Assembly: GCA_964634935.1 (NCBI GenBank)
Contig: CAZWJT010000005.1
Coordinates: 71,128 to 135,127, forward strand
Origin: an uncultured Planctomycetia bacterium
Lineage (GTDB): Bacteria; Omnitrophota; Gorgyraeia; Duberdicusellales; Duberdicusellaceae
Reading direction: 5' to 3'
DNA length: 64,000 nt
This document shows, in pieces, positions 2,836-44,868 of the stretch; position 1 is the stretch's first letter; each line of letters starts with the position of its first letter. The translations under genes and the position numbers were made by a program. Below the pieces are notes generated by a model that was not told where the DNA came from, made no database searches, and saw nothing but the letters and a program-made list of their open reading frames with translations.

Positions 2836-2955
2836 CTCGTGATGATGAGCTGTACTCCTAACGTCTGACTCACGAACTAACCGACAATCTACGTTAGTTT
2901 ATCAAGGAAACAGCCCCATAACGCTACCATAGAGATTCTGGATTGGAGTTGAAAA

Positions 2956-3861
2956 TTAAAACTTAAATTCAACCCCAGCCTTTATTCCAACATCACGTGA
3001 ATTTTTAAAAAGCGAAAGGAATAATTCTTTGTTGACGCTATTCCTCACCAAGCGAAGCTCAAAAGCGGGTTTTGATGATTTTGCTAAATCTAAGGAGAGG
3101 GTAACTGTATGCTTACCAGGAAAAACTTTACTGATTGAAAAAACAATAGAAGTTTTCCGATGTAAATCACGAATAATAAATTCTATTTCTCGGTCATTTT
3201 TTATCTTCCAATTTCCAAACAATCCAATACGCTTTGATTTACCACTCTCACCTTCAAGGCCTAAGGTAAAATAGATCTTTCGATCATCAACACCCAAAAG
3301 ATTGGTTAAACCGGTCTTAAAACATAAAGCGTGCTTGTCTTTTTCAAGCCAATAGCTGATATGGCTTTCTTGAATCTGCCAGAAACCTTGCAGGATAAAA
3401 GAATGAAGGCTTGTTTCTAAGCGCGTGGTTGTCTTTTTTTCGTAGAAGTAGATTATCTGGTTATTCGCATCAAGTTCCCATGTTCCCTTGAAGAAAAGCT
3501 TATCCGTTTTTTGGTGTTCGCGTTTAACTTCAAAGCAAAAATATTTTTCTTCAAAAACCTGCCAGCGTCCTTTGAGAATAATCCGTCCGATTTTCCGAAA
3601 GAGAGGCGTTGTGCGCTCGAGAAGTTCAAAACACAGCACATTGCTTTTGGCCTTAGTGATCTGTGTAGAAAACGAAATGGTCTTGCCAAAAAGTTGGTTA
3701 TAAGAATGAGCTACTACAAAAATGAGATTAGATGATGAATCTATTTTCCAGATGCCGTTGATTTTCAACAAGTGAGGAATCTGCTCCGAGGGGATAAGCG
3801 GATGAAAGAAAAGGTTATTACCTTCTACGGTAAAAATCCCTTGGGGAAGTTGTTTCGCCAA
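2956..3861 (-). CDS. Hypothetical protein with five internal ~40-aa repeats centred on a G-x-W motif. It is co-directional with, and immediately downstream of, the cimA-lysC genes.
   Basis: The 301-aa ORF starts 4 nt after the cimA stop. Repeated 'INGIWKID / LKGRWQVF / FKGTWELD / LQGFWQIQ / LFGNWKIK' motifs occur. It ends in '...VEFKF' but has no N-terminal signal peptide. Confidence 0.4.
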   Translation of the reverse strand: MAKQLPQGIFTVEGNNLFFHPLIPSEQIPHLLKINGIWKIDSSSNLIFVVAHSYNQLFGKTISFSTQITKAKSNVLCFELLERTTPLFRKIGRIILKGRWQVFEEKYFCFEVKREHQKTDKLFFKGTWELDANNQIIYFYEKKTTTRLETSLHSFILQGFWQIQESHISYWLEKDKHALCFKTGLTNLLGVDDRKIYFTLGLEGESGKSKRIGLFGNWKIKNDREIEFIIRDLHRKTSIVFSISKVFPGKHTVTLSLDLAKSSKPAFELRLVRNSVNKELFLSLFKNSRDVGIKAGVEFKF

Positions 3862-26337: not shown

Positions 26338-27475
26338 TTTCTCCTATCGTATGATCAAGTTCGCATAAAAAATCCTTCAGCACCCGCACTCCCAGGAAAA
26401 CATTCTTAACTGCCACATACTCGTCGCTTGCATGCGCGGTTGCACGACTGCCGAATCCAAACGCACAGCCGCATATTCCACGCTGAGCAAGATAAGTGAT
26501 CACGGTCGCTCCCTTACTGATGAGCGGCTTAAAACCAATCTGATGAGCCCGCAAGACCCGCTGAAACGTCCGCATCAAAATATTGCCCTTCTCCAACTGA
26601 ATGGACGGTTGATACGCCAAGACAGAAAATCTGCACGAAATGGCGTTTCGACGCACAATATCTCTCACCCGCCGGATCACGTCTTTTTTTCTTTGAGAAA
26701 AAAAACGTATATCAATTTCGGCCTTACAGGCATCCGCAACAATATTCACCTTTTCCCCGCCTTGAATTCTCCCAAAATTGACAGTCATGGCCTTTGTGGG
26801 ATCTTTTTCTCGGTATAACTTTTCAAGTTCCTTTATCTCTGACAAAATCTTCAGCATTTCCTCGATCGCGTTTCTTCCTCGTTCGGGATAAGCCCCGTGC
26901 GCTTTCTTTCCTGCGACTTCCAGTTCGATGTGAAGCAAAGCTTTCTGCCCATAAACTACTTCGAATTCATCACAATCAAGAACGACTCCATAATCGATCT
27001 TCCCAAGCCGAGGAAGAAGAGGAATAATCCCCAAAGCATTCCCTGTTTCTTCATCAGCTGAAGCAGCGAGAATAACATCAAGATTTTCAAGCTTTCCTTT
27101 TTCTTCGCGCAACTGCATAAGCGCCTCTGCGGCAACTGCAACATTAACTTTGCAATCCGTAGCTCCCCTTCCATAAACACGTCCTCTTTGAACAAACCCG
27201 CTGAAAGGATTGACGGTCCATTTATCGCCAGCGGGAACCGTGTCCAGATGGGGCGTTAACAAAATCTTTTTTCTATGGGTTTTCGAAGGAAAAGCAGCAA
27301 TGAGATTTGAACGGTGTTTCTTAAATTCAAGAATTTTGCATGAAAACCCTCCTGACCGAAGAAACGCTCGTAAATACCTCGCTACCTTTTCTTCATTCCC
27401 AGGAGGATTTTCCGAATTTATCCTCACTAAGGATGTTAAAATGGAAATTACGCGCTCTTTTTTATTCATGATCAC
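26330..27475 (-). CDS. M20 family metallopeptidase (ArgE/DapE-type deacylase)
   Basis: 'LTPHLDTVPAGDKWTVNPFSG' and 'GRGATDCK' are M20 metal-binding motifs. It overlaps era by 8 nt. Confidence 0.75.
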   Translation of the reverse strand: MIMNKKERVISILTSLVRINSENPPGNEEKVARYLRAFLRSGGFSCKILEFKKHRSNLIAAFPSKTHRKKILLTPHLDTVPAGDKWTVNPFSGFVQRGRVYGRGATDCKVNVAVAAEALMQLREEKGKLENLDVILAASADEETGNALGIIPLLPRLGKIDYGVVLDCDEFEVVYGQKALLHIELEVAGKKAHGAYPERGRNAIEEMLKILSEIKELEKLYREKDPTKAMTVNFGRIQGGEKVNIVADACKAEIDIRFFSQRKKDVIRRVRDIVRRNAISCRFSVLAYQPSIQLEKGNILMRTFQRVLRAHQIGFKPLISKGATVITYLAQRGICGCAFGFGSRATAHASDEYVAVKNVFLGVRVLKDFLCELDHTIGENG

Positions 27476-29495
27476 AGGAAAAATCGGTAACTTCTAATTC
27501 TGGGTTCAACGGGTTAAACCCCTTGTAAGCCAGAATGTAGTATGCAGTTGAAGAAACAGCCCCCGTCGTTGTACCAGAAGGAGTCCTCCAGCCGTGCCCA
27601 GTATCTACATTACCAGAAGAAGCATACGGAAGACAACCTCTTCCTTGGCCGGAAGCCGAGGGCGATGAAACTACCATCTTTATCAACTCATTCAAGTATT
27701 TCTCGGCTAATAAACAGTACCGTCGTGATTGTTCCAAATTTCCTTTTTGAGAATGAAAATAAGCCATAATCTTGAAAGCAAGAATCATTTGTGCCGTCCA
27801 CTCCCCAGAAACCACTCCGCCGCGAGCACTGTGCATACTTCGAGAGAAGTCGAAACCTTCGAGCGGAATTTTTTTGTTTTGAGTCTCAAAAAAAGTACTT
27901 ACTTTGCATTTCTGGATTGCAAACTCGATAATCGCATCGGGATCCATCCCGCACCCGAGAAGAATTTCTGGCCCAACCGCTGTAATCGACCACGCGTAGG
28001 TATCCGTAGCTATGGTCGCATCACCTTTCCCGCGATTCACCGGAATGTGCCCTTTGGTATAAGAATAGGCGCGCAACCAGTTAAGAACATCTTTCTTTGC
28101 GCGGCTTGAGCGAGCATCTTTGAGAAAAAATTCAAGCTGAAGTAAAAAAGCGTACGCATCAAGATTGTGTTCGGTAGCATACCAGTTTACTTCTGGCCCG
28201 CCCCGGATTCCTCCTTCGGCATCCTGAACGGTAGTAAGAAACTGGAATACCCCACGGGCCAATTCAAGGTATCTTTTATCCCGGGTCACAGACCAATAAC
28301 GCAAAGCAGCAAGACCAATCCAAATATTTGGCCCGCTGTGAACAATGTATTCGCAAGGATCCCCCGTTCGAGCATCATACGCGTTCATAAAACCATCTTT
28401 GTGTTTTTTAGCTGTGGAAAGGTAAAATTTCAATATTTTTTCTGCTGAAACGGTATCGTTATAGAGCAAAAATACAAAGACCGCTAAAGATTGATCGTAG
28501 CTAAAAGCCCAGTTCTCCAGGGTTTCATCACCCTCAAAACTCACAACCAGTCCTGTTTTTTGATTCTGATGACGCTTAATCCAGGAATACATTGCCTGCA
28601 CGCTTCGCTCATTGAATTGTTGCTTCTGGCCGGCCAGGACTCCGATGCGCTCAGTCTCTTGGGCAAGAAATGAATTTTCTTTCTGAAGCTCTTGACGCAG
28701 ATAACCATTCTCTCGCTGAAGCACTGCGATCTGCTTCTTCAGATTTTCCGCCTGCTCTTTGGTCTTTTGGATCTGCAAGACAACTTCTTGAACATCTGAA
28801 TCCATCGCGTGCAAAGATCGCTCTTTCTTCTGAAGCTGCTCATAATCTTGCATTAAAAGGCTATGCTCATATTGCAAATTATGCACCGTATTGTTTATTT
28901 TTCTTATCCGGTCATCAAGCAACCGTACAACAGTTTTCGATTGCGTAAGATATTTTTCTTGCAAACCAATCTCTTCATTTAAATTCGCTAAAACCCTCAC
29001 TAAGTTGCGGTTTGCCAAAACAACGCCACGGTTCCACATAAGCGTAGAAACTAGGAACATAAAAAGAACAACGACACACCCGATAATAAAACGGGGAATA
29101 AGAATTTTAGTCCACGTAAAGTTGAGAAGCATGCCAAGATCTCTTGGCTGAATATTTTGGAACATAAGTCCAAACTCATATCGAAAACCCTCGATGGTCT
29201 CATCCTTCCAAGAAACTAAAGCTTCCGCATGCAGCATCTGTCCAGTAAATGGAAGATGCATCGTGAGCTGAAAGCTGGTTTTCCCTGGCTCGATAAAATC
29301 CCAGAGTTGTCTCGGGAACGACAAACAACGCAATCGGATACCTCCACGCGAAACGTCAAAGGTAAATCCAGAAAAACTGGTTGTTTTCTTTTGAATGCCT
29401 ACAACCCTACATTCAACCGGAATGGCACTGCGGATACGCAGAAATTTTCTTCGGTCAAAGGCTGTTGATTTTTTACGCCTGAACACGCTCAACAT
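27462..29495 (-). CDS. PilZ domain, TM segment, coiled-coil and six-hairpin (alpha/alpha)6 glycosidase-like domain fusion protein
   Basis: N-terminus: 'RRKFLR' (RxxxR) and 'DVSRGG' (DxSxxG), a canonical PilZ. One TM helix ('LIPRFIIGCVVVLFMFLVSTLMW') is followed by a ~150-aa heptad-rich region. The C-terminal ~400 aa carry aromatic-rich helical-hairpin motifs ('SYDQSLAVFVFLL', 'TEHNLDAYAFLL', 'TAYYILAY') typical of (alpha/alpha)6-barrel glycoside hydrolases or epimerases. Confidence 0.5.
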   Translation of the reverse strand: MLSVFRRKKSTAFDRRKFLRIRSAIPVECRVVGIQKKTTSFSGFTFDVSRGGIRLRCLSFPRQLWDFIEPGKTSFQLTMHLPFTGQMLHAEALVSWKDETIEGFRYEFGLMFQNIQPRDLGMLLNFTWTKILIPRFIIGCVVVLFMFLVSTLMWNRGVVLANRNLVRVLANLNEEIGLQEKYLTQSKTVVRLLDDRIRKINNTVHNLQYEHSLLMQDYEQLQKKERSLHAMDSDVQEVVLQIQKTKEQAENLKKQIAVLQRENGYLRQELQKENSFLAQETERIGVLAGQKQQFNERSVQAMYSWIKRHQNQKTGLVVSFEGDETLENWAFSYDQSLAVFVFLLYNDTVSAEKILKFYLSTAKKHKDGFMNAYDARTGDPCEYIVHSGPNIWIGLAALRYWSVTRDKRYLELARGVFQFLTTVQDAEGGIRGGPEVNWYATEHNLDAYAFLLQLEFFLKDARSSRAKKDVLNWLRAYSYTKGHIPVNRGKGDATIATDTYAWSITAVGPEILLGCGMDPDAIIEFAIQKCKVSTFFETQNKKIPLEGFDFSRSMHSARGGVVSGEWTAQMILAFKIMAYFHSQKGNLEQSRRYCLLAEKYLNELIKMVVSSPSASGQGRGCLPYASSGNVDTGHGWRTPSGTTTGAVSSTAYYILAYKGFNPLNPELEVTDFSCDHE

Positions 29496-35133: not shown

Positions 35134-35481
35134 CTATGAAGCGGTCGCGGAAGAATCTTCAGGTATAATAAAGTCAACTTTCACGCAAATCCGAAATAAC
35201 TCAGAAAACATCCTCTTAATCCAAACAACTTGCCCGGTCTGGCGAATATTGGGAAAATCCCCTTTTGAACAAAGCCATATTTCCACTTTATCACCGACAA
35301 AGAACAATTTTGCGCTCTCCACGTAAACATTGCTCTCTTTGACTGCAACACACCTGCCACCACTTTCAAAGTCTTTACTTAAATTACGCAGACTTATACT
35401 CGTGCGTACATCCAAAAAGTCTGATACCCCCTGGATACTCATCATCTTTTTCTGCTGTACTCTATTATCCATAGTCTGCAA
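35134..35481 (-). CDS. Small PilZ-like (degenerate) protein, co-transcribed with the giant gene
   Basis: The 115-aa protein starts 3 nt after the giant ORF stop. 'RTSISLR ... DFESGG' resembles PilZ RxxxR/DxSxxG with shifted spacing, and a beta-barrel-like hydrophobic pattern follows. Confidence 0.3.
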   Translation of the reverse strand: MQTMDNRVQQKKMMSIQGVSDFLDVRTSISLRNLSKDFESGGRCVAVKESNVYVESAKLFFVGDKVEIWLCSKGDFPNIRQTGQVVWIKRMFSELFRICVKVDFIIPEDSSATAS

Positions 35482-35483
35482 AA

Positions 35484-38400
35484 CTATTCAACAACATTCT
35501 GTCTGATGCGCTCCGGTTCCAAAAAATGAGAAAGTGAAGCGATTGGCTGAATCTGAACAATGAGAAAAGTGAATCCTTGAATATGCTCAAAGTGTTCACC
35601 AAGCTTATTCCCTAAAATGCTATTTTTCTGATTGAGCGATAACGATCTAAAATCAATACCGCCGGTATCGGAAGTTTGCCCTCTGCGTTCCTGGGAAATA
35701 ATCTTGCCTGAACTTAAGTTTTGGATAAAAGTATCGTATGCTTCTCGCACTACCCGACCATCATTCATCCGGTAAATAATCCACTTCATCGCGTTACGAC
35801 CATCTACCTCGGCGGAAACAATTGCGGCATAGTTAAAATTTTCGATTGCTTTTGCCATAGCATCGGCTGATTGTGCCGAAGTATACGTATCAGCGTATCC
35901 ATAAACCCTTTCTGAGTCGTCATGCCAAGGATGCGTAACAGCGGTCACACCCAAAGCAAATGTGATATCTGGTGGCCGCGAGGTCTGGTCGTGATTGATC
36001 TCAGCAGCCATAATCCGAACGTTCATCCCTCCCGGGGAAAGCGCAGTTTCCAGCTCAGAAAGATTGAAGTCTCGGGGCACAAAGAATACAATCTCATCTC
36101 CACCGTCTTGATTGATGATAACCGCTGACCCGCGAAGTCCAACTTCGCTTATGAAGTTTTCCTCGGGTATTGTCTGCCGTAGAATACCGATGAGCGTTTC
36201 CACCTTCTCTCGCATAGTACTTTTCACGAAATCATCTGCCTGAACCATCTCGTGAATAGCGACTTGCTCTTTATCCTGGACATCCTGGTCAATGACGGCA
36301 AGATAATTCTGATGGGCTTGAATGAGATTACCTTGAATCATCGCCCAAAAGCCTTTTACGTCAGCCGCCACTACTCTGCCTCCGTTCTGAGAAAGACGAT
36401 ATGCTTCACGATGAAATTGCTCAGATGAGGTGATGGTTCTGTTCTTTGGATTTGTTTCAATGAGAATAACTGCTTCTTGGAAAAGCGTAATATATTCACC
36501 AAATGTATCCGGAGGAGCCCTAGTCCGCAAAGCCTCCAAACCCTCGAGCACCCGTAGAATCCTCTGACTCTCCTGTTCAATATTGGCGCCAAGCCAGTTC
36601 TTAGGGTAGTCGAAAAGATCAAGAATATCCAAGTACTGCTTAAGCTGAAGCTGTGTACCTGCAAGGTGCGCATGAGCTTGCCCTCTTACCGCCTTCATCT
36701 TCTCTTCAGAAGGAGCCTCTTGAGGCCGCAAGCCCAAAGATTCACGCAGAGATTCAGCCTGCATAACGAATTGATCGAAAGTGTCCAGAGAAAAAATAGC
36801 TCCACGGATTTTATTGCCCAAATCACTGCTTATTTTAGCAATCTTTGCTGCCTGAAGTGCCTGAATATCAGCTAGAATGCGCGCCTGATTTGTAGGTTTT
36901 TTCACTGCCAAACTTACCCCATAGTTCGCCCTGAATTGAAAAGTACTGAGCGCTTCATAGTTCGAATATTCATCGTGAACAAAACGGTTCATTTCATGAG
37001 CAAGGTCCTGAATAACCCGCTCAAGTGCTTGGAGCAACAGTTCTGGATTACCCATAAACCTGCTCTCAAATACGGATTTTTTAATCACAAACTTGTCTTG
37101 CTTATAGTCAGAAGAAATTCTTTGCTCTTCGGAGCTGATAATCCCTGATTTCCGCAAGAGCTCAAGGAGAGTCATTTGGCGGTGTAATATAACCGCATCG
37201 TTTTCGGGCATACTGAGAATCTTATTGAGTAATTTTATGTCCTGCTGATTAAAAACCAATACGGAATCACCTTCTTGAACCTGCCGAATCAAAGCAACTA
37301 CCGGGTTTTGGGAAATTATCCTCTGGCTCATCTCCCCGAGCGTCTGAATATCCCCCTTGGTAAGTGGCCTGCGCATCATTAATGCTGAGAGGACATGGGT
37401 TACCCGAATCCCAAACTCATTGAATTTGTGGATACCAACAACAATACGATCAACAGCGCTTCTGCGTTGGGTATCTTTTCGTTGCTCATGCTCCACTCGC
37501 CTTTCTCCTGGCTTGACAGTGCTGCGTGGCTGTCGATGCCGCGCAAGAGTCTCAAATATGCTTTCAATATAGGTCTGGTAAATCCGGGCCAACTCTCTTC
37601 CTCTGTCGAATCTATCGAGCGGTAATTCGACCGTTCCGCGTACAATATCATCAAACACTCTGTGTGTTGCTTTTTGTTTACTCTGGGAAAACAACCAGTC
37701 AAAATAGGAATTGTCGTCTTCGTCCTCATGGAAAACCACAGCAGCCAAGTTTGCTTCTAGATCAGAAACATCGACTGTGGAAATGACCTCAGAGAACAAA
37801 GCAACATCTGCGCGCGCCTGAGCAGACATTGACAATCCCTCGACGATACGGTGCAGAACATAGAGCATAAACAAGTATTCGGGGGTTTGACGAACTTTCC
37901 CCTGGATAAGCTCAGTGAGATAGTGAAAATCTTCTCCAAAAAGTTGTTCCAACTGCCGAGGGTCAGCCGCTCTTAAAAAACTATCGATCGCTCCTTGCGC
38001 TTTCCCGGGCCACCGTTGAAGCATTTCTGCAACAAGTCGTTGCTCGGCAAGGTAAGTGCTTGAAACTTGACTTACAAGCCACTGAATTTCATCATCGATG
38101 CCGGCAAGAATCATTAATCCAGAGCTGGTTATATCTTTTCTTTCAAGGAGCATTTCCCGAATAGCTGGATTTGATCGGCACAGCTGTTCTGTGATCTGAC
38201 CAGCTTGGCGCTCAACAGTCGCCTCCTCAAAAATACTAAATAAGCCGACCAGCTGTCTATTCTTACTGCTATTGTCATATCGGCCTTGGCTGAACTGTTT
38301 ATGGAGCGCCTCGTGAATTAATGTTTTAGTGATTACCAGCGGATCTTCCAAATCGCTTGAAATAAGCACGATATAAGAAAAACCTCCCCGTCCATTGGGA

Positions 38401-41400
38401 ATACTGAGAATCATACCCTGCGCGGAAAAACCAAGAAGATCAGCCGCCCAAGAATCGCGAGAAACAAAAACTACTTGCTCTACGTCAAGCATATCTTCCG
38501 AATAACTGCGCAATACCTGATTAATAGCGTCAATTAAAAAAGCCTGTTTTTCCGATGCCATACGTACCGCCTGTGAATCAACGCCATGCAGAGCAGCAAG
38601 AAAACTGCGCACTCCACCATCCATATCCATTCTCTCTTGCACGCTGCTTACGATCATTTTTCTTTCGTCCAACAATTGTCGATGCCGATCCAGAGTATCC
38701 TGTAATGTCTTAATCACCCTCGGGTCTCCGTTATGCTTTTGTTCCCGGTTTAAATCTTTCTTGGTTCTTTCGATTGCAGAGGATAATCGGGAAAGATACC
38801 GGGCCAATATCCCATGGACATATTCTTTCTCGTGAGAAGAAACAGGATAAGAACCAAGCCTCTCTCCCCCGAGATCCTCCCGATCAACTCCTATACCCTG
38901 GCCCCACCCCAATCCTAAGGCTAACCCGACAAGCAAAGCCTGCCGGTTTGTAAAACCAAATTCTCTCTGCAAAACAGATAATTCTTCCTGAGGATCTTTT
39001 ATGCCAAAATTTTGAGGATGATCTCTCAGGCGCATTAAAGCAAGACGCATCCCGGCTGTAGACGGATCTTCACCAACCCGGCTCAGTATGTGCGCGGCAA
39101 TCGCACCCCAGTCGGTTAAGCCCGACTGCACCAAGGATAACTTTGTTGCGTTGAAATCCGACATAAGTTCCTGGATGAATCCCAATTCCCCGGAAATAAG
39201 CTTGCCTTGTACTTTTTGTTCTTTTGCGATAAGCAGGATGCTATCTTCTAAGGCCTGACGAGCTATTCCCATAGGCGATTGCTTTGTGATGTGCAAAAGC
39301 CTTCTTACTTGTGCCGGCGAAAGAATGATGCGCGCCTTCGGTAACGACCGGGTAAACATCAAGGAAACCTCTCGGTATACAGAAGGGCGCACGGAAGATT
39401 CTAAAATATCAAAAACATGGTCTACAAATCGTGGATGGCTACGAAAAATCCTGGGGAGCACTTTCGGCAGATGTATCGGTGACTGAGCCATCGCATGCAC
39501 AATAATCTTAGCTTCTCTTTTCCCGATGGGCACACTGTACATGACAAATATTTCTTCCAGTTTCTCGGCAATGACCGAACGAACAAAATCCGCAAATTGC
39601 CCTTTATGCCCGCTTATCTCTTTCAATTTATTTACAAGATACAAAAATTCTTTTTCCGGAGGATTATCAGAACGAATAACATCTTTCCGCTCCTGAATTG
39701 CTTGAGCCAAAGAAAGCAGCTTCATGTTTTGTGTCTCGCTCCGGATATATTGTGTCAAGAACCTATCGCTTTCACCAAAAACATACCGCTGAACTGCCCG
39801 CAAAAGATAATGGGGATTATTCTTGTCGCGTAAAGCGATTCTTAAAGATTCTCCATTGATTTTAATCCGAGCGATTTCCCTACCGCGGGCACTCATCACT
39901 ATTTCCCCGCTCACTGCATCGTTTTTATGAAAAATCCTCCCCATCCCCAGGGCGTTCAGAAAGGCAGGGAATGCTCCTCGAAAATGCAACGTAAGCAGAT
40001 TCGCTGCCACCAAATACTCAAAAAGCTCATGAAGATACGCGATAGTCTTTATATCCTGGGTTGCGGATCCGGTGGGAGCTAGGTTACCAAAGATTGCGAT
40101 AAAATTATTCTCGATTGAAACAAACCCGAATAAATCATCTACAAGAGAATCGAAGGTATACAGAGAAGGTCTCCGTTCCTCAGGAAGGTCGCGAAAAATA
40201 TTGAGAAGCGAAGTCAGTAAATCCTGCTTTTCTTTACTGAATCCGAAAAACTCAATATTCTGGATAATCCGCTCAAGATCAATCTTTCCTTTTTTACCCA
40301 ACGGGAGAACCTGCTCCTTGCCTGATTGGGTAATAAGCGTGATATTTTCTCCGGTAAAAATTTTAAACGCCTTCACGCGTTTCCCCATCTGCGGCAGCTT
40401 ATCCTCTGTTTGTTCATCAGCTCGACCAGAAGTAATCGGGGCGACATTAACCCGGACTACCGAAGCCTTACCGGGAATATTTGGCGGAACAGACGACGGA
40501 CGTAACATCTGTGGCATTTTGGTAAAATCAGCACCCCCGGAGTAATACCGACGCTTCACTGTCCGCCCAGTATGGTTGTCGTATTCGGATTTAATGTAGT
40601 TATAGATTCCCTTCTTGAATGCCTCGAGATACAGCTGATATATTTTTTCTTTTGCCGCGGTGTCTACAATATCGATCCCGGAAATCTTCTCTTTGTTGAT
40701 ATACCCGGTATAGACACTTTCTTTAAGTTTATTTTTGAACCAGACTGCCAGAATAAGCGAAGAATAAATTTGCCGGAGCCTGGCAAAATTCCTTCCAGAA
40801 TTGATCTCCTGTTCTATCTGAGGAAGAAGAATCTCGCGAACCATCCGGGATGAAATCCTATTCACCTGACTGATGGTTTGATCATTGAGAGAACTTTCGT
40901 GCTTAATGTAGCTTCGATTATTCTGCAAAGCTCGGTAATCTTCTTCCAGCATTGCCTTCAGCGAGGATTCACCGATGAGCGCCGTTGTCCCTTCCTCATA
41001 CACAGAAACTGAACCTGGAATAATCCAAATCTTGTTGAAGGTATTCACTGGGATATTTTCTGCTTGAATAACCCGGTAAATCTCTTGATATGTTTTTTTC
41101 CAGAAAGCTCGTCCTAATTCGGCCTCAGGATACGTAAGAGACGCTAAAAGTTGTTTTAACACATAGTCTTGCGAAAGTAGGTCTCTGCCTAAATCCGTTC
41201 CGCTGAGAGCGTGCGGCGCCACGCGATCTTGTTCGTATGGAGAAAGATTGACCCAAAGGTTCTCTTCGGGAATCGTAAGTCCGGCAAGAAAATACTTAAT
41301 CAACAGTTCAGCTTCTTCACGCAACATACCGCTCGAGGCGTCAGCAAGGTCATGCGAAGAAAGGATAAATTCAAGTTCGAACGGCTTGTCTGGATTGATC

Positions 41401-41603
41401 CGGATACCCGCCAGAGTGGGTAAAGAATAGTGTGCCGACATATCCACTAGAGTCGCGGGGCGCGGAACATCGATGGCTTCGGCAAATGAGTTTATCTGGT
41501 ATGAATGAAAGGCTCGCTGCGAAACAAATGTGCTGAAAACAAATATGCAGACAATTACCAGCCCCATTGCCCTGATTGAAGCATTTCCTTTTCTTCCGAC
41601 CAT
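35484..41603 (-). CDS. Giant protein (2,039 aa): N-terminal signal/anchor, long mostly helical body with an internal HExxH zincin-like motif, and a C-terminal GGDEF-like (GGDEI) domain
   Basis: Uninterrupted 6,120-nt ORF. The N-terminus 'MVGRKGNASIRAMGLVIVCIFVFSTFV' is a signal peptide or signal anchor. 'LIHEALHKQF' followed by 'FEEATVE' about 25 aa later lies at nt 38301..38315. The C-terminal ~180 aa align along their length with diguanylate cyclase domains: 'LAVIDQDVQD' vs DxD, 'NQDGGDEIVFFVP' vs RYGGEEFvvilP, 'ITFALGVTAV' vs tvSiGva, 'ADAMAKAIENFNYAAIV' vs AD.ALY.AK..GRN.v. Confidence 0.6.
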   Translation of the reverse strand: MVGRKGNASIRAMGLVIVCIFVFSTFVSQRAFHSYQINSFAEAIDVPRPATLVDMSAHYSLPTLAGIRINPDKPFELEFILSSHDLADASSGMLREEAELLIKYFLAGLTIPEENLWVNLSPYEQDRVAPHALSGTDLGRDLLSQDYVLKQLLASLTYPEAELGRAFWKKTYQEIYRVIQAENIPVNTFNKIWIIPGSVSVYEEGTTALIGESSLKAMLEEDYRALQNNRSYIKHESSLNDQTISQVNRISSRMVREILLPQIEQEINSGRNFARLRQIYSSLILAVWFKNKLKESVYTGYINKEKISGIDIVDTAAKEKIYQLYLEAFKKGIYNYIKSEYDNHTGRTVKRRYYSGGADFTKMPQMLRPSSVPPNIPGKASVVRVNVAPITSGRADEQTEDKLPQMGKRVKAFKIFTGENITLITQSGKEQVLPLGKKGKIDLERIIQNIEFFGFSKEKQDLLTSLLNIFRDLPEERRPSLYTFDSLVDDLFGFVSIENNFIAIFGNLAPTGSATQDIKTIAYLHELFEYLVAANLLTLHFRGAFPAFLNALGMGRIFHKNDAVSGEIVMSARGREIARIKINGESLRIALRDKNNPHYLLRAVQRYVFGESDRFLTQYIRSETQNMKLLSLAQAIQERKDVIRSDNPPEKEFLYLVNKLKEISGHKGQFADFVRSVIAEKLEEIFVMYSVPIGKREAKIIVHAMAQSPIHLPKVLPRIFRSHPRFVDHVFDILESSVRPSVYREVSLMFTRSLPKARIILSPAQVRRLLHITKQSPMGIARQALEDSILLIAKEQKVQGKLISGELGFIQELMSDFNATKLSLVQSGLTDWGAIAAHILSRVGEDPSTAGMRLALMRLRDHPQNFGIKDPQEELSVLQREFGFTNRQALLVGLALGLGWGQGIGVDREDLGGERLGSYPVSSHEKEYVHGILARYLSRLSSAIERTKKDLNREQKHNGDPRVIKTLQDTLDRHRQLLDERKMIVSSVQERMDMDGGVRSFLAALHGVDSQAVRMASEKQAFLIDAINQVLRSYSEDMLDVEQVVFVSRDSWAADLLGFSAQGMILSIPNGRGGFSYIVLISSDLEDPLVITKTLIHEALHKQFSQGRYDNSSKNRQLVGLFSIFEEATVERQAGQITEQLCRSNPAIREMLLERKDITSSGLMILAGIDDEIQWLVSQVSSTYLAEQRLVAEMLQRWPGKAQGAIDSFLRAADPRQLEQLFGEDFHYLTELIQGKVRQTPEYLFMLYVLHRIVEGLSMSAQARADVALFSEVISTVDVSDLEANLAAVVFHEDEDDNSYFDWLFSQSKQKATHRVFDDIVRGTVELPLDRFDRGRELARIYQTYIESIFETLARHRQPRSTVKPGERRVEHEQRKDTQRRSAVDRIVVGIHKFNEFGIRVTHVLSALMMRRPLTKGDIQTLGEMSQRIISQNPVVALIRQVQEGDSVLVFNQQDIKLLNKILSMPENDAVILHRQMTLLELLRKSGIISSEEQRISSDYKQDKFVIKKSVFESRFMGNPELLLQALERVIQDLAHEMNRFVHDEYSNYEALSTFQFRANYGVSLAVKKPTNQARILADIQALQAAKIAKISSDLGNKIRGAIFSLDTFDQFVMQAESLRESLGLRPQEAPSEEKMKAVRGQAHAHLAGTQLQLKQYLDILDLFDYPKNWLGANIEQESQRILRVLEGLEALRTRAPPDTFGEYITLFQEAVILIETNPKNRTITSSEQFHREAYRLSQNGGRVVAADVKGFWAMIQGNLIQAHQNYLAVIDQDVQDKEQVAIHEMVQADDFVKSTMREKVETLIGILRQTIPEENFISEVGLRGSAVIINQDGGDEIVFFVPRDFNLSELETALSPGGMNVRIMAAEINHDQTSRPPDITFALGVTAVTHPWHDDSERVYGYADTYTSAQSADAMAKAIENFNYAAIVSAEVDGRNAMKWIIYRMNDGRVVREAYDTFIQNLSSGKIISQERRGQTSDTGGIDFRSLSLNQKNSILGNKLGEHFEHIQGFTFLIVQIQPIASLSHFLEPERIRQNVVE

Positions 41604-41807: not shown

Positions 41808-42923
41808 TTAAGGGTTGAATTGTTCGAGGACTAAAAGATGTTCTTTGGGATTTAACTTAACCGTGAAATGCTTCAGGAAACTCATTCCTAAGAGACCATC
41901 TTCTGGCATTGGTTCAGCTTGTTCTAAAACTGCAGCGAGAACATTGTTGACTTCGGCATCCCCAAGCTTAACATTCCTGAGAATGACCTGCTTTGCCTTC
42001 ACGGTTCTCCCGTCAGCAAGAATAGCCTGCATCTCTTCTTTTTCCTCCGCAAGATTAATGTTCAGTTTCTCGGCTAAGTCACGCGATAATAAAACCATTG
42101 CGGCTCCCGTATCCAAAACAAACCGTCCTCGAACCGAATGGTTCAGTAATACTTCGACGATAATACTTGCCCCTGTTTGATCATACACAACGACTTCCCG
42201 GTTAAAATCATTCTCCATCTTTTCAAGATGCTCTTTTGCCGATTCAAAAAATAACCTCATCTGGTTGTCAATCTGTTCATGCTTCAGTCCGGAAAACCGC
42301 TCCATAAGTTTTTTCCGAAACAGGGCAAGTTCATTTGTATAGTTAAAAATCTGTTTTTCGAATCGCTTTATTTTATCGTTCGATTCTGCGATTGTATACT
42401 CATGAATCCTCACCTGGGCGTTTAGGTTATTCATCTCAGTCACCAGATTATTATATAATTCAATGTTTTCTGCCGGATTTTTCACTGCCGCGACTTGCTC
42501 GCTTACTTCAATAAGGCGCTTCTTAAGCTCATCTGTTTTTTGCTCTAAGACTGAGAGGCTTCCCTGAGAATCATCTTTATCCTTTTTGGCCTCAACGGCA
42601 AGGGTGCGCGCCCGTTCAAGCTTACGAAACTCAGCAGCAAGATCCTTCAGTTTAAACGGAGTGTATTCCGGACGTGAAAAATATTTCTTTCTCCAGTTTC
42701 GTTCTAAACGCTCCTGAAGCACATACGGATATCTATCAATCCGTTCAACCTCTTCTTTCTTAATATGCATAGTGCCGCAACCAATATTCACAACAATTGC
42801 TTTTTCTGTTTCACGCTCGATAATCCCCTCAATCTGTCCTTTATTCGTAAGATAAACCATATCGGCAAAAACCTGGAACTGAAAATACCCCAAGAAAAAG
42901 AAGATTAAAAATAATCGGCCCAT
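41808..42923 (-). CDS. Signal-peptide protein with central coiled coil and C-terminal retropepsin-like (clan AA) aspartic protease domain
   Basis: 'RGRFVLDTGAAMVLLSRDLAEKL' contains the D-T-G-A catalytic motif, followed by 'LLGMSFLKHF', as in the bacterial retropepsin-like family. The N-terminus is hydrophobic ('MGRLFLIFFFLGYFQFQVFA'). Confidence 0.6.
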   Translation of the reverse strand: MGRLFLIFFFLGYFQFQVFADMVYLTNKGQIEGIIERETEKAIVVNIGCGTMHIKKEEVERIDRYPYVLQERLERNWRKKYFSRPEYTPFKLKDLAAEFRKLERARTLAVEAKKDKDDSQGSLSVLEQKTDELKKRLIEVSEQVAAVKNPAENIELYNNLVTEMNNLNAQVRIHEYTIAESNDKIKRFEKQIFNYTNELALFRKKLMERFSGLKHEQIDNQMRLFFESAKEHLEKMENDFNREVVVYDQTGASIIVEVLLNHSVRGRFVLDTGAAMVLLSRDLAEKLNINLAEEKEEMQAILADGRTVKAKQVILRNVKLGDAEVNNVLAAVLEQAEPMPEDGLLGMSFLKHFTVKLNPKEHLLVLEQFNP

Positions 42924-42954
42924 GGGTTCCTTTTTTCCTATTGATCTGAAATAC

Positions 42955-44868
42955 CTAGATTTCAGCGACTACCACCGTGACATCGTCATGTTGAATAGTA
43001 TTCCGCGAAAAAAACAATAAACGTTCCTTGAGCGAAAATGCCACATCTGCTGCCCGCAACCCGGAAAATGCATTGGCATAATCGAGAAAACGGTGAGGCC
43101 CAAATTCCTGTTGGGCTCTATTGCGCGCTTCCGTTACCCCATCGGTATAAAATATGAATTTGTCGCGGGGTGCGATGTTATCAAATGTATTGTCACGGTA
43201 TGCGTAGTTTTCTATAACACCGAGAGGAATACCGGAATCTAGAGAAAGATATTTACTTGAAAGTTTATTGGTATCGCAGTACACCGGACTGCTGTGGCCA
43301 GCAGACGCGCAAATACAAGTCCGTTTGGAAAAATCAAAAACAGCATACAGCGCAGTGACAAAACGACCTTTCAACCTCCCGGACAGTTCATGGTTTAAAA
43401 GAGTCAGTACTTTTGCCGGGGAAGACTCTTGTCTGGCGTAGATACGAAATAAAGAAAGCGTTTGCGCCATAATCAAAGATGCGGGCACTCCTTTACCGGC
43501 GACATCACCGATAAAAATTCCCGAGGCATGTTCGTTAAAAATAACAAAATCATAAAAATCACCGGCAACGAATTTTGCAGGTAGGAAAAATACTTCAACC
43601 TGGAATTGTTTTGAAGGAGCGTCTTCCAGGGGAAGAAATGAACTTTGGATTTCGCGCGCGACGACGAGTTCTTTTTCTAAGGCCCCCCTCCGGCGCACTT
43701 CTTGGGCAGCTTTCAGCAGCGCTGAACAAAAAAATAAAGCCGCAAGCGTGCTGGTTGGGGTAAAAACTAAAATCCACAACCCGGTAAACGCAAACAACAA
43801 AAATGCGAGCGTTGCGTAACCAAAAATGAGCAGAAAAAGGTACTGAATTCCCTTCCGTAATGAACAAGCTAAGAAAACAATCCAGCCTAGAAGAAGAAAC
43901 CCTGAACAAAGCAGAAAATTCCATACCTCGCCGATCTGGACAAGAAATTTTCCAGTCATCAGATTATGGAAGATGTTCGCCTGAAGCCCAACCAGAGGAT
44001 AAAGAACGCCAACCGGTGTAGGACGTAAATCGGAAGTGCCGACCGCGGTTAAACCGATAAAACAAACTTTGCCTTGCAGCTGCGTTAAATCAAAGCTTGG
44101 CTTCTTTCCTTTCAATACAGCTTGATGGCTCCGCAAAATCTCAAGATAGGAAGTGTGGGTAAAAGTACGCGTGAAATCCCCAGCGTAATTTACCAGAAAA
44201 GTGCCTTTATAAACCGGCACAGATATTTTACCATCTAAAAAGATTCTGTTCTGGCCGACAACAATCTTTTCCGGATTGGCCTGTAAAATATCACAAGCAA
44301 CTCTTGCTCCAAGCGGCAGATAGGTTTTCCGGCCTTGGGAGAGAAGAAAGGGAAGCCGACGTATTTTCCCGTCTCGATCAACTGAGACATTGATATGGCC
44401 GCTTGCCACTGCCGAAGAAGCAATTTTTTCTTCCGAAACCAGAGCGAATTCTGAAGATGATTGCGAAGATGAGGCTTTCTCCACCTGAAAAACAACCGGG
44501 AGATAAACATTTTTGGCTTTCTGAAAAGCAGAAATAAGTAAGTTGTCGTAGGCGGTTTTCTCAGAAAAAACCATGTCAAAAACAATGGCTTGAGCCTTAT
44601 AGTGCGAAAGAATATCTACAATGGAAGCGTGAAAATCACGGGGGATCGGCCATGAGCCGAGTTTTTTCAAGCTTTCTTCGGAAATCTCAACGAGAACGAC
44701 CCGGGAAGAAGAAACTCCTGGCGGACGGAGAGAAAAGAACCAATCAAAAATAAATAACTCATATTGCTCAAAAGGCCTGCAAAAAACAAGATATCCAACA
44801 ACAAGGATAAAAAAGATGCCAATAACGATATTGCGTACTGATTGGCTTAAAGACAGGAAAAGCTTCAT
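42955..44868 (-). CDS. CHASE2 extracytoplasmic sensor, TM region and PP2C/SpoIIE-family serine phosphatase
   Basis: N-terminal TM, then a ~300-aa periplasmic CHASE2-like region, four TM helices, and a C-terminal 'GDVAGKGVPASLIMAQ' and 'FYTDGVTEA' PP2C/SpoIIE core. Confidence 0.65.
   Translation of the reverse strand: MKLFLSLSQSVRNIVIGIFFILVVGYLVFCRPFEQYELFIFDWFFSLRPPGVSSSRVVLVEISEESLKKLGSWPIPRDFHASIVDILSHYKAQAIVFDMVFSEKTAYDNLLISAFQKAKNVYLPVVFQVEKASSSQSSSEFALVSEEKIASSAVASGHINVSVDRDGKIRRLPFLLSQGRKTYLPLGARVACDILQANPEKIVVGQNRIFLDGKISVPVYKGTFLVNYAGDFTRTFTHTSYLEILRSHQAVLKGKKPSFDLTQLQGKVCFIGLTAVGTSDLRPTPVGVLYPLVGLQANIFHNLMTGKFLVQIGEVWNFLLCSGFLLLGWIVFLACSLRKGIQYLFLLIFGYATLAFLLFAFTGLWILVFTPTSTLAALFFCSALLKAAQEVRRRGALEKELVVAREIQSSFLPLEDAPSKQFQVEVFFLPAKFVAGDFYDFVIFNEHASGIFIGDVAGKGVPASLIMAQTLSLFRIYARQESSPAKVLTLLNHELSGRLKGRFVTALYAVFDFSKRTCICASAGHSSPVYCDTNKLSSKYLSLDSGIPLGVIENYAYRDNTFDNIAPRDKFIFYTDGVTEARNRAQQEFGPHRFLDYANAFSGLRAADVAFSLKERLLFFSRNTIQHDDVTVVVAEI

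What the first reader, a model, noticed from the sequence alone, without database searches (positions are those of the whole stretch)
35800..36340. C-terminal GGDEI diguanylate-cyclase-like domain retains metal-binding Asp residues but lacks the inhibitory I-site
The GGDEI motif is encoded at nt 36090..36104 on the minus strand. The upstream 'LAVIDQDVQD' corresponds to the Mg-binding DxD of active cyclases. 'ITFALGVTAV' and 'ADAMAKAIENFNY' match the late GGDEF beta-strand and helix. The position 5 residues upstream of GG, where RxxD normally sits, reads 'RGSAVIINQD'. This suggests either an unregulated active cyclase or a degenerate receptor-type GGDEF. The F to I change in the fifth position is uncommon.
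Basis: seen in the sequence. Interest (0 to 1): 0.6.

Follow-up and report, generated by a model that had tools for sequence, protein, structure and literature searches.

The report
Hidden two-part cyclase-like module
The GGDEI motif is real and conserved, but it belongs to the second half of a previously unannotated ~600-residue pair of fused cyclase-fold domains (one degenerate, one with its catalytic residues intact) found only in large secreted-looking Omnitrophota proteins, so it is probably a nucleotide-joining enzyme of unknown product, not an ordinary diguanylate cyclase.

Summary
GGDEI is encoded at 36090-36104 (-), residues 1834-1838 of a 2039-aa ORF (35484-41603). No Pfam, NCBIfam, PADLOC or PDB-sequence search recognises a GGDEF domain.

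An exhaustive HMMER search plus contig scans gave 18 relatives, apparently all Candidatus Omnitrophota large proteins. They share a ~600-aa module (residues 1370-1980), not just the motif.

AlphaFold2 on a 15-sequence alignment gave pLDDT 84 and pTM 0.84, showing two beta-alpha-beta-beta-alpha-beta domains joined by a helical linker. The best Foldseek matches are Cas10/Cmr2 and two-domain adenylyl cyclases, with single GGDEF domains matching well locally.
- Domain A (1445-1595) is a degenerate GGDEF domain. It has KQDKF for GGDEF and Asn for the metal Asp, but keeps the base- and phosphate-binding positions.
- Domain B (1742-1925) keeps Asp1748, GGDE, Arg1863 and Lys1918 in 19/19 sequences. 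It lacks the guanine-reading Asn/Asp.

No RxxD I-site exists in any member.

Most likely this is a fused pseudo-dimeric nucleotidyl transferase or cyclase with an unknown product. The main caveat is an N-terminal signal-peptide-like segment, which predicts export away from NTPs.

The parts
35484..41603 (-). 2039-aa ORF that contains the feature. It has an N-terminal signal-peptide-like hydrophobic segment (residues 9-27) and an N-terminal ~400-aa domain shared with >1400 Omnitrophota-type large proteins.
35664..37496 (-). Conserved ~600-aa tandem cyclase-fold module (residues 1370-1980)
   Evidence: Local phmmer gave E 1e-106 to 1e-33 over the whole module in the homologues that are complete, with shorter coverage for truncated contigs and the most distant members. 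AlphaFold2 model: pLDDT 84.4, pTM 0.84. Foldseek: Cas10/Cmr2, two-domain adenylyl cyclases and GGDEF domains.
37281..37472 (-). N-terminal helical hairpin of the module (residues 1378-1441)
   Evidence: Helices at model residues 9-40, 47-63 and 65-72
36819..37271 (-). Domain A (residues 1445-1595), a degenerate GGDEF domain. Asn1452 sits at the metal-Asp position. Lys1457, Asn1460, Asp1469 and Lys1587 occupy the nucleotide-binding positions.
   Evidence: Secondary structure. hhalign against 77 authentic GGDEF domains gave P=0.01 over 122 columns in the expected register. The domain A HMM scores 71% of real GGDEF domains above the 99th percentile of shuffles. Conservation.
37089..37103 (-). KQDKF (residues 1501-1505), at the beta-hairpin position where GGDEF would be in domain A
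36384..36788 (-). Helical linker between the two domains (residues 1606-1740), with conserved 'VRG', 'YLDIxDLFDY' and 'TNPKNxxITSGEAF' motifs
35829..36380 (-). Domain B (residues 1742-1925), a divergent GGDEF/cyclase-like palm domain with its catalytic residues retained.
36360..36362 (-). Asp1748 codon: invariant Asp at the end of the first strand ('VVAADVKGFW'), the predicted metal ligand
   Evidence: 19/19 conserved. Strand at model residues 373-380 followed by a helix. Codon read.
36273..36302 (-). 'LAVIDQDVQD': variable loop and helix start inside a ~40-residue helical insertion. It is not a catalytic motif.
36090..36104 (-). GGDEI (residues 1834-1838) at the hairpin between the strands at model residues 461-464 and 468-473
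   Evidence: GGDE is 19/19 conserved. The fifth position is Ile in 16 sequences and Phe, Val or Leu in one each.
36015..36017 (-). Arg1863 codon: invariant Arg at the start of the 'VRIMAAEI' strand
35850..35852 (-). Lys1918 codon: invariant Lys in helix 'SADAMAKAIENF', at the position of the phosphate-binding Lys of GGDEF 'ALYxAK'
35685..35822 (-). Small beta-rich subdomain plus a helix that closes the module (residues 1928-1973)
35487..35663 (-). C-terminal tail that begins with 'GGIDFRSL', shared with many proteins of the same large-protein family
35134..35445 (-). 103-aa ORF starting 39 nt downstream of the stop codon. It gives a weak PilZ-like match and may or may not belong to the system.
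   Evidence: Pfam PF07238 E=0.011, 16.5 bits, below the cut-off of 22.5. No RxxxR motif.

Best explanation
Shown:
- The GGDEI region is domain B of a fused pair of GGDEF/cyclase-fold (palm) domains that forms one conserved ~600-residue module.
- The module consists of a helical hairpin, domain A, a helical linker, domain B and a small beta-rich cap.
- Domain A is a catalytically dead GGDEF domain. It has KQDKF instead of GGDEF and Asn instead of the metal Asp. It still conserves the residues that GGDEF domains use to hold a guanine nucleotide.
- Domain B conserves the two-metal catalytic set: Asp1748 at the end of strand 1 and Asp1836/Glu1837 in the GGDE hairpin. It also conserves Arg1863 and Lys1918.
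- Domain B has lost the guanine-reading Asn/Asp and carries a ~40-residue helical insertion.
- There is no RxxD I-site, so any activity would not be under classical product feedback.

Inferred:
- The two domains work together within one chain as a pseudo-dimer, as the two palm domains of Cas10 or C1/C2 of membrane adenylyl cyclases do.
- Domain A presents one nucleotide, probably GTP. Domain B activates the alpha-phosphate of a second NTP for attack by a 3'-OH, giving a linear or cyclic di- or oligonucleotide.
- The product and base specificity cannot be read from the sequence.
For: - Conservation: Asp1748, Gly1834, Gly1835, Asp1836, Glu1837, Arg1863 and Lys1918 are invariant in 19/19 modules. 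Lys1457, Asn1460 and Lys1501 are conserved in all 18 sequences that include domain A, and Gly1562, Ser1564 and Lys1587 in 19/19. Overall identity is only 27-40%.
- The module is conserved as a unit: A and B co-occur in every homologue that is not cut by a contig end.
- In P0135 'GARLA' motifs flank the module closely, at residues 2576 and 3209. In P0134 they bracket it at 599 and 1408.
- The AlphaFold2 model has pLDDT 84.4 and pTM 0.84. Each domain has beta-alpha-beta-beta-alpha-beta order, the Asp lies at the end of strand 1 and GGDE lies at the hairpin.
- Foldseek against the PDB: Cas10/Cmr2 hits 3w2w_A and 4h4k_C (E 3-4e-4, probability 0.98-0.99, ~600 aligned columns), membrane adenylyl cyclases (6r3q, 9u3u), LapD GGDEF-EAL (3pjw) and single GGDEF domains (6eib, probability 1.00, TM 0.58-0.60 on the target).
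- hhalign against 77 authentic GGDEF domains: domain A P=0.01 over 122 columns in the expected register; domain B P=0.0013 with GGDEI aligned to GGEEF.
- HMMs of both domains score real GGDEF domains well above shuffled or reversed decoys, with constant offsets.
- Context: a weak PilZ-like ORF lies immediately downstream, and a protein with a canonical PilZ domain (RKFLR, DVSRGG) lies 6 kb downstream.
- West-Roberts et al. (10.1101/2023.11.21.568195) report PilZ genes following Omnitrophota giant genes and GGDEF domains inside those genes.
Against: - No sequence profile detects GGDEF, class III cyclase or Cas10: Pfam, NCBIfam, PADLOC and PDB profile searches were all negative.
- The hhalign P-values are modest. 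The Foldseek E-values are borderline, with whole-chain TM of only ~0.2.
- The pseudo-dimer geometry could not be inspected, because model coordinates and PAE were not available to me.
- The assignment of domain B's first strand rests on the model and on conservation. hhalign in one mode instead paired 'ADDFVK' with 'DIDFFK'.
- The protein has a single N-terminal hydrophobic segment, and family N-termini look like Sec signal peptides. This predicts an extracytoplasmic location where NTPs are not expected.
- The small downstream ORF is not conserved next to homologues.
- There are only 19 family members, and no biochemistry.
Confidence: 0.5

Rival explanations
1. Conventional diguanylate cyclase. 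Domain B of one protein pairs with domain B of a second copy and makes c-di-GMP from two GTP, unregulated by product because the I-site is missing. Domain A is only a regulatory GTP or nucleotide sensor.
For: - The GGDE hairpin, metal Asp and phosphate Lys are all retained.
- PilZ-type proteins are encoded nearby.
- Canonical GGDEF domains and downstream PilZ genes are reported for Omnitrophota giant proteins.
- One family member, P0133, has an exact GGDEF.
Against: - Domain B lacks the equivalents of the guanine-binding Asn and Asp. Ile1756 and Gln1765 occupy the +8 and +17 positions after the metal Asp.
- The Asp-to-GG spacing is doubled by a helical insertion.
- GGDEF HMMs fail even at E<=10.
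- The first-strand motif DxxGFW resembles class III cyclases more than DxDxFK (my knowledge of those motifs).
- The protein is predicted to be exported.
Confidence: 0.2
2. Non-catalytic nucleotide receptor or scaffold. Both domains are degenerate and only bind a nucleotide or a partner protein, as in PelD, LapD or PopA-type GGDEF domains.
For: - Domain A is clearly degenerate (KQDKF).
- The LapD GGDEF-EAL receptor is among the structural matches.
- No I-site is present, and no profile recognises the module.
Against: - Receptor-type GGDEF domains usually lose the GGDEF acidic pair or the metal Asp, and often keep the I-site (my knowledge).
- Here the reverse holds. Asp1748, GGDE, Arg1863 and Lys1918 are invariant in 19/19 at ~30% background identity, which is the pattern of selection on catalysis.
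Confidence: 0.12
3. A different palm-fold nucleotidyl transferase, for example a Thg1-like 3'-5' adding enzyme, a small polymerase or primase-like enzyme, or a protein nucleotidylyl transferase. It would act on a polymer or protein substrate and would not make a second messenger.
For: - The Asp ... (G/S)DE pattern is common to the whole palm superfamily.
- A Thg1 hit appears in the viral structure library.
- The 86-residue spacing resembles palm enzymes that carry inserted subdomains.
- Sister modules in these proteins are very diverse enzymes.
Against: - The best structural matches are all cyclase-type palm proteins: Cas10, adenylyl cyclases and GGDEF domains.
- Domain A carries GGDEF-specific signatures, namely IKxLN...D, GxS and ADIQALQAAKxxRR.
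- No nucleic-acid-binding domain was recognised.
Confidence: 0.1
4. A chance GGDEI pentapeptide in an unrelated helical protein.
For:
- All family databases are silent.
Against: - Expected occurrence in the ORF is 0.02.
- The motif is invariant in 19 homologues.
- It sits at a predicted beta-hairpin of a confidently modelled palm fold.
- The profile shows a signal against real GGDEF domains.
Confidence: 0.01

Closest known systems
GGDEF diguanylate cyclase domains (Pfam PF00990; e.g. PleD, WspR, V. cholerae GGEEF domain PDB 6eib)
   Same: - Both domains have the same beta-alpha-beta-beta-alpha-beta palm fold. 6eib matches with probability 1.00 and TM 0.58-0.60 on the target.
- Domain B has GG(D/E)E-hydrophobic at the hairpin, an Asp at the end of strand 1 and a Lys in the last helix.
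- Domain A keeps the FKxxN...D, SxG and ADxALxxAKxxR signatures in register.
   Different: - The Pfam model does not detect it, even at E<=10.
- The two domains are fused in tandem and always occur together.
- Domain A has no GGDEF motif and no metal Asp.
- Domain B has no guanine-binding Asn/Asp, a ~40-residue helical insertion and a DxxGFW first motif.
- Neither domain has an RxxD I-site.
Cas10 / Cmr2 (type III CRISPR), with two palm (cyclase-like) domains and GGDD in the second
   Same: - It is the top structural match over ~600 aligned columns (3w2w_A, 4h4k_C, 9l7c_B; E 3-8e-4, probability 0.96-0.99).
- The order of parts is the same: degenerate palm, then helical domain, then a catalytic palm with GGD(D/E), then a C-terminal domain.
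- One chain carries a complete two-nucleotide site (my knowledge of Cas10).
   Different: - Whole-chain TM is only ~0.2, so the domain packing differs or is mis-modelled.
- PADLOC, whose only Cas matches here were chance Cas4 hits, reported no match at E<=1.
- There is no HD domain, and none of the ten flanking ORFs that were scanned has a Cas-related Pfam family.
- The module is embedded in a large multi-enzyme protein with a signal peptide.
Membrane adenylyl cyclases (C1-C2 pseudo-heterodimer) and class III nucleotidyl cyclases
   Same: - Two homologous cyclase-fold domains lie in one chain with complementary residue loss (metal ligands in one, base or second-site residues in the other).
- Structural hits: 6r3q_A, 9u3u and 7pde_A for the tandem; 4wp3, 1wc1 and 7r65 for single domains.
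- Domain B's 'D-V-x-G-F-W' resembles the class III 'D-I-x-G-F-T' motif (my knowledge).
   Different: - The second catalytic motif is GGDE, which is GGDEF/Cas10-like and not the class III 'IGD'.
- There is no Pfam PF00211 match.
- TM on the target is lower (~0.4) than for GGDEF domains.
- Domain A is recognisably GGDEF-derived.
Degenerate GTP- or c-di-GMP-binding GGDEF domains (e.g. the GTP-sensing GGDEF of Caulobacter PdeA, or LapD and PelD receptors; my knowledge plus the 3pjw/6pwk hits)
   Same: Domain A has lost the catalytic residues but keeps the nucleotide-contacting positions Asn1460, Asp1469, Lys1457 and Lys1587. LapD is among the structural matches.
   Different: - Domain A is partnered with a second palm domain that looks catalytic. 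It is not partnered with an EAL domain or an output domain.
- It has no I-site, so c-di-GMP binding of the LapD or PelD type is not expected.

Membership tests
GGDEF diguanylate cyclase (PF00990) | Significant match to the family profile | tested here: not met
   - No PF00990 or NCBIfam hit at E<=10 for this protein or for any of 15 homologues.
- A PDB profile search found no GGDEF chain.
- Only weak profile-profile signals were found: P=0.0013 for domain B and P=0.01 for domain A.
GGDEF diguanylate cyclase (PF00990) | Palm fold (beta-alpha-alpha-beta-beta-alpha-beta-alpha-beta) with the signature motif on the beta2-beta3 hairpin | tested here: met
   - The AlphaFold2 secondary-structure order fits in both domains.
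- Foldseek matches GGDEF domains 6eib, 3i5c, 3icl and 6zxm with probability 0.96-1.00.
- Which of the two domains gave each hit is not reported.
GGDEF diguanylate cyclase (PF00990) | GG(D/E)EF motif and a metal-binding Asp at the end of strand 1 | tested here: met
   - Domain B meets this: GGDEI (fifth residue Ile) and Asp1748, both invariant in 19/19.
- Domain A does not: it has KQDKF and Asn1452.
GGDEF diguanylate cyclase (PF00990) | Guanine-recognising Asn and Asp (PleD N335 and D344 positions) in the catalytic domain | tested here: not met
   - In domain B, positions +8 and +17 after Asp1748 are Ile1756 and Gln1765. No conserved Asn/Asp lies there.
- The equivalents are present only in the dead domain A: Asn1460 and Asp/Asn1469.
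- The register for the domain B helix comes from counting and from the model. It does not come from a significant alignment.
GGDEF diguanylate cyclase (PF00990) | RxxD inhibitory I-site five residues before GG (present in many but not all members) | tested here: not met
   Positions -9 to -6 are G-S-A-V here. No RxxD occurs in any of the 19 sequences, in either domain.
GGDEF diguanylate cyclase (PF00990) | Synthesis of c-di-GMP from two GTP by a dimer | not testable with these tools
   This needs an enzyme assay.
Cas10 (type III CRISPR large subunit) | Two palm domains in one chain, the second carrying GGDD, separated by a helical or zinc domain | tested here: inconclusive
   - The architecture is analogous, and Cas10/Cmr2 gives the best Foldseek matches (E 3.4e-4, probability 0.99).
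- Whole-chain TM is only ~0.2 and rmsd exceeds 20 Å.
Cas10 (type III CRISPR large subunit) | Sequence-profile match and association with Csm/Cmr subunits and a CRISPR array | tested here: not met
   - The PADLOC scan of the module reported no match at E<=1.
- The neighbouring genes that were scanned encode an aspartyl protease, CHASE2-SpoIIE, AsnC, an aminotransferase and similar products, not Cas proteins.
- No CRISPR-array search was run on the window.
Class III nucleotidyl cyclase (PF00211) | Profile match, plus D-I-x-G-F-T and (K/R)xIGD metal motifs | tested here: not met
   - No Pfam hit.
- The first motif is similar (D-V-K-G-F-W), but the second motif is GGDE.
- The structural matches are weaker than those to GGDEF domains (TM on target ~0.4).

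The most novel reading that the evidence does not exclude
The module is a self-contained, Cas10-like single-chain oligonucleotide or dinucleotide synthase that evolved from a GGDEF duplication. It is carried as a cargo cassette in secreted, modular effector proteins of predatory or epibiotic Omnitrophota. These proteins have a signal peptide plus a conserved N-terminal domain, variable enzyme cassettes and a conserved 'GGIDFR' tail. After delivery or processing, the module would make a nucleotide signal in or at the prey cell, not in the producer's cytoplasm. This would also explain why NTP-using and glycolytic enzymes sit behind signal peptides.
Probability: 0.1. Interest if true: 0.85.

Novelty: new variant of a known kind. 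Interest (0 to 1): 0.55.

Why it matters
If the module is active, it would be a third independent case, after Cas10 and eukaryotic adenylyl cyclases, of a cyclase-fold pair fused into one chain with one dead and one live half. This one is visibly derived from GGDEF domains.

It is invisible to the standard domain libraries, so c-di-GMP or cyclic-nucleotide censuses of Omnitrophota would miss it.

It sits in signal-peptide-bearing multi-enzyme proteins, which sharpens an open puzzle about where these proteins act and on what.

The conserved residue set gives clear mutational targets: D1748, D1836/E1837, R1863 and K1918 in domain B, and N1460 and K1587 in domain A. The module is also a tractable ~600-residue construct for biochemistry.

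Tried and rejected
- Pfam and NCBIfam scans of the full ORF, the C-terminal 372 aa and 15 homologous modules found no GGDEF, cyclase or Cas10 family, even at E<=10.
- A PADLOC scan found nothing relevant.
- PDB sequence searches:
  - The single sequence gave only a non-significant Amt-GGDEF hit (8qpf, E=0.74) that did align GGDEIVFFVP to GGEEFAILLP.
  - The profile of the whole module gave nothing.
- Word-indexed homologue searches:
  - The C-terminal region found nothing.
  - The module alignment found only one protein, P0136.
  - The full-length protein found >1400 hits, but apparently only through the N-terminal ~15-29%.
- A single-sequence AlphaFold2 model was useless (pLDDT 38).
I replaced them with 77 authentic GGDEF domains fished from metagenomes.
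- hhalign of domain A against domain B was not significant, so the internal duplication is inferred through GGDEF and the fold. It is not shown directly.
- I considered 'ADDFVK' (residues 1789-1794) as the first strand, because its spacing to GG (about 43) is canonical and hhalign paired it with DIDFFK. I rejected this for three reasons. The model places it inside a long helix (model residues 406-442). Only the first acidic residue is conserved. The register is one residue short.
I repeated it with 5 sequences.
- I tested whether the small downstream ORF is conserved next to homologous modules. It is not.
- Pfam scans of six homologous full-length proteins showed almost no recognisable partner domains.
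Full report
**1. The observation**

The minus strand of 35484-41603 is one 2039-aa ORF. It is the only GG[DE]E[FILVY] in all six frames of the window. From the amino-acid composition, 0.26 such motifs are expected per window and 0.02 in this ORF. The pentapeptide alone is therefore weak evidence, and its significance has to come from conservation and fold.

**2. Standard annotation is silent**

- Pfam and NCBIfam find no GGDEF, cyclase or Cas10 domain in the ORF or in its C-terminal 372 residues, even at E<=10.
- A phmmer search of PDB sequences gave only a non-significant hit (E=0.74) to the GGDEF part of an Amt-GGDEF protein. That hit aligned GGDEIVFFVP to GGEEFAILLP.

**3. Relatives**

- The word-indexed search with the C-terminal region found nothing.
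- The full-length protein found >1400 proteins, but the matches cover only ~15-29% of the query, apparently its N-terminal domain. Those that carry a name are Candidatus Omnitrophota large proteins. Their remaining parts carry very different enzyme domains, including enolase, TIM, PGK, PEP-utilising enzymes, methyltransferases and M48 peptidases.
- The exhaustive HMMER search of 1.8 billion representatives with the C-terminal 372 aa found 15 relatives, with E from 3e-40 to 3e-4.
It spans about residues 1370-1980, with E from 1e-106 to 1e-33 in the complete homologues.
- A scan of one genome per species gave six loci. Five are labelled Candidatus Omnitrophota and one 'uncultured Planctomycetia'. 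Three of the six were new sequences. One further member came from the profile search.
- In two distant, high-GC members a repeated 'GARLA' motif brackets the module: closely in P0135 (2576 and 3209, module 2600-3180) and more loosely in P0134 (599 and 1408, module 813-1400). This independently marks the module as a discrete cassette.

**4. Fold**

- A single-sequence AlphaFold2 model was useless (pLDDT 38).
- With the 15-sequence alignment (A1), the 611-residue module gave pLDDT 84.4 and pTM 0.84.
- The model has five parts, in model numbering (add 1369 for protein numbering):
  - a helical hairpin (9-72);
  - domain A, with strand 78-84, helices 87-116, hairpin 126-129/133-138, helices 140-176, strand 190-194 and helix 203-225;
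  - a helical linker (237-371);
  - domain B, with strand 373-380, helix 383-399, long helix 406-442, strands up to 461-464, GGDE at 465-468, strand 468-473, helix 479-486, strand 493-500 and helix 539-553;
  - a small beta-rich cap (559-604).
- Both domains therefore have the palm/cyclase order of elements.
- Foldseek against the PDB ranked the following:
  - Cas10/Cmr2 first (3w2w_A E 3.4e-4, probability 0.99; 4h4k_C; 9l7c_B), aligned over ~600 columns;
  - then membrane adenylyl cyclases, which also have two cyclase domains (6r3q_A, 9u3u, 7pde_A), and LapD GGDEF-EAL (3pjw);
  - then single-domain hits to GGDEF domains (6eib probability 1.00, TM 0.58-0.60 on the target; 3i5c; 3icl; 6zxm) and class III cyclases (4wp3, 1wc1, 7r65; TM ~0.4).
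- Whole-chain TM scores are low (~0.2). The shared feature is the tandem of palm domains and their order, not a superposable quaternary arrangement.

**5. Register against real GGDEF domains**

- I used three GGDEF sequences recalled from memory only as bait, to fetch 80 authentic GGDEF loci from metagenomes. I built a 77-sequence alignment from them.
- hhalign of the domain A sub-alignment against it gave P=0.01 over 122 columns, with these pairings:
  - NQQDIKLLNKILSMPENDAVI with DIDhFKxvNDtyGHaaGDxVL;
  - YKQDKFVI with YGGEEFVV;
  - NYGVS with SiGVA;
  - ILADIQALQAAK with LixrADxALYxAK.
- Domain B gave P=0.0013 over 56 columns, with VIINQDGGDEIVFFVP paired with DxxaRYGGEEFvViLP.
- As a calibration, HMMs of domains A and B were scored against the 77 real domains and against 20 shuffles plus the reverse of each. 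71% (A) and 61% (B) of real domains exceed the 99th percentile of the shuffles. The 77 domains are related to one another, so these percentages are not independent tests.
- For domain A the signal comes from strand 1 and the following helices, independent of the GGDEF motif. For domain B it comes from the hairpin onward. Offsets are constant in both cases.
- The homology is remote but real. It is clearest for domain A.

**6. Residue inventory (19 sequences)**

Domain B:
- Asp1748, Gly1834, Gly1835, Asp1836, Glu1837, Arg1863 and Lys1918 are invariant. Phe1752, Lys1794 and Asp1914 are nearly so.
- The fifth motif residue is Ile in most members, with Phe, Val and Leu once each. The F-to-I change is therefore a family trait and conservative.
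- Asp1748 ends strand 1 in 'G-R-V-V-A-A-D-V-K-G-F-W'.
It lies in the most indel-rich part of the alignment, so it is not the metal site.
- Asp1748 and GG are 86 residues apart, against about 41 in PleD-type domains (my knowledge). The excess is the long helix that carries the conserved 'A-[DE]-x-x-[VI]-K' motif.
- The positions that read guanine in diguanylate cyclases (Asn at +8 and Asp at +17 after the metal Asp; my knowledge of PleD N335 and D344) are Ile1756 and Gln1765 here.

Domain A:
- The metal Asp position is Asn1452, and the signature is KQDKF.
- Lys1457 and Asn1460 are conserved in all 18 sequences that cover domain A, Asp/Asn1469 and the Arg pair after Lys1587 are largely conserved, and Lys1587 is invariant. 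These are the base- and phosphate-binding positions of GGDEF domains.
- The two halves have thus lost complementary functions.

I-site: no RxxD lies at -9 to -6 before either hairpin in any member.

'ITFALGVTAV':
- hhalign pairs it with the GGDEF 'vTvSiGVA' strand.
- The model makes it a helix, and the segment is deleted in P0125, P0126 and L001.
- The invariant 'VRIxAxxI' strand is the only candidate for the core fourth strand in those proteins.

**7. Mechanism**

Shown:
- The module is a tandem of a dead and a catalytically equipped palm domain.
- The two domains always occur together.
- A high pTM suggests one rigid unit.

Inferred:
- It acts as an intramolecular pseudo-dimer, analogous to Cas10 or to adenylyl cyclase C1/C2.
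- Domain A would hold one nucleotide, probably GTP. Domain B's two-metal site would activate a second NTP, giving a 3'-5' linked di- or oligonucleotide, linear or cyclic, with no product feedback through an I-site.
- The alternative of an ordinary B-B dimer that makes c-di-GMP cannot be excluded, and the context gives it some support:
  - the ORF immediately downstream (35134-35445) gives a weak PilZ hit (E 0.011, below the cut-off, no RxxxR);
  - ORF 27462-29495 begins with a canonical PilZ domain (RKFLR, DVSRGG);
  - West-Roberts et al. report PilZ genes after Omnitrophota giant genes.
- However, the small ORF is not conserved beside homologous modules.

**8. Main difficulty**

- The protein has one N-terminal hydrophobic segment (residues 9-27) after a basic stretch. 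Family N-termini look like Sec signal peptides.
- Taken at face value, the module is exported to a place where NTPs are not expected.
- The same paradox applies to the glycolytic domains in sister proteins. It was noted by West-Roberts et al. and in the 2026 Omnitrophota preprint.
- Either the topology prediction is wrong, or the proteins are processed, or the cassettes act in another cell.

**9. Verdict**

- The motif and the missing I-site are real.
- The 'DxD' landmark is wrong, and the late-strand landmark is doubtful.
- The interpretation as a GGDEF-like domain with retained catalytic acids is right in kind. What is actually there is a Pfam-invisible, so far Omnitrophota-restricted tandem GGDEF/Cas10-like module with unknown product.
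- I rate it a new variant of a known kind, of moderate interest. All functional statements remain untested.

Noticed in passing
window 40400-41603 (-), residues 1-400 of the ORF; proteins P0002-P0120: The N-terminal ~15-29% of the query, presumably the signal-peptide-like segment plus the ~350-aa domain behind it, matches >1400 large proteins, apparently Omnitrophota. Their remaining parts carry very different enzymes, including enolase, TIM, PGK, phosphoglucomutase, PEP-utilising enzymes, methyltransferases, M48 peptidases and kinases. Pfam does not recognise this N-terminal domain.
   Followed up: partly
window 35487-35663 (-), residues 1981-2039: A C-terminal tail that begins with 'GGIDF[RK]' lies 54-133 residues before the C-terminus in 29 of 135 fetched family proteins. 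It may be a sorting or processing signal. Together with the shared N-terminal domain it frames variable 'cargo' cassettes.
   Followed up: partly
P0134 and P0135 (distant high-GC homologues): A 'GARL[AS]' pentapeptide recurs 9 and 14 times respectively. In P0135 it closely flanks the tandem module (2576 and 3209, against module 2600-3180). It looks like a linker or cleavage site between cassettes. It is absent from the window protein.
   Followed up: partly
window 38301-38315 (-), residues 1097-1101: An HExxH motif ('LIHEALHKQF') lies in the otherwise unannotated middle of the ORF. It may be a zincin-like metallopeptidase cassette. No Pfam hit.
   Followed up: no
window 35134-35445 (-): A 103-aa ORF starts 39 nt after the stop codon of the large gene and gives a sub-threshold PilZ match (E 0.011). 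It has 'DFESGG' but no RxxxR. It is not conserved next to homologous modules in L001-L006.
   Followed up: yes
window 27462-29495 (-): A 677-aa protein has a canonical N-terminal PilZ domain (RKFLR ... DVSRGG), a hydrophobic segment, a coiled-coil-like stretch and a weak match to the prenyltransferase alpha-alpha toroid family. This suggests the organism uses c-di-GMP signalling.
   Followed up: partly
window 41808-44868 (-): Directly upstream of the large gene lie a 371-aa protein with a retropepsin-like aspartyl protease domain and a CHASE2-SpoIIE (PP2C phosphatase) sensor protein. Further downstream are an AsnC regulator, an aminotransferase, a DUF3857/transglutaminase-like protein and an M48 peptidase.
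   Followed up: no
P0125 and P0131, downstream of the module: In several homologues the module is followed by other cassettes. Examples are a JAB/MPN-like 'HTHPYD' segment in P0125 and P0131, and a methyltransferase in P0128 (confirmed by Pfam). In the window protein the module is the last cassette before the tail.
   Followed up: partly
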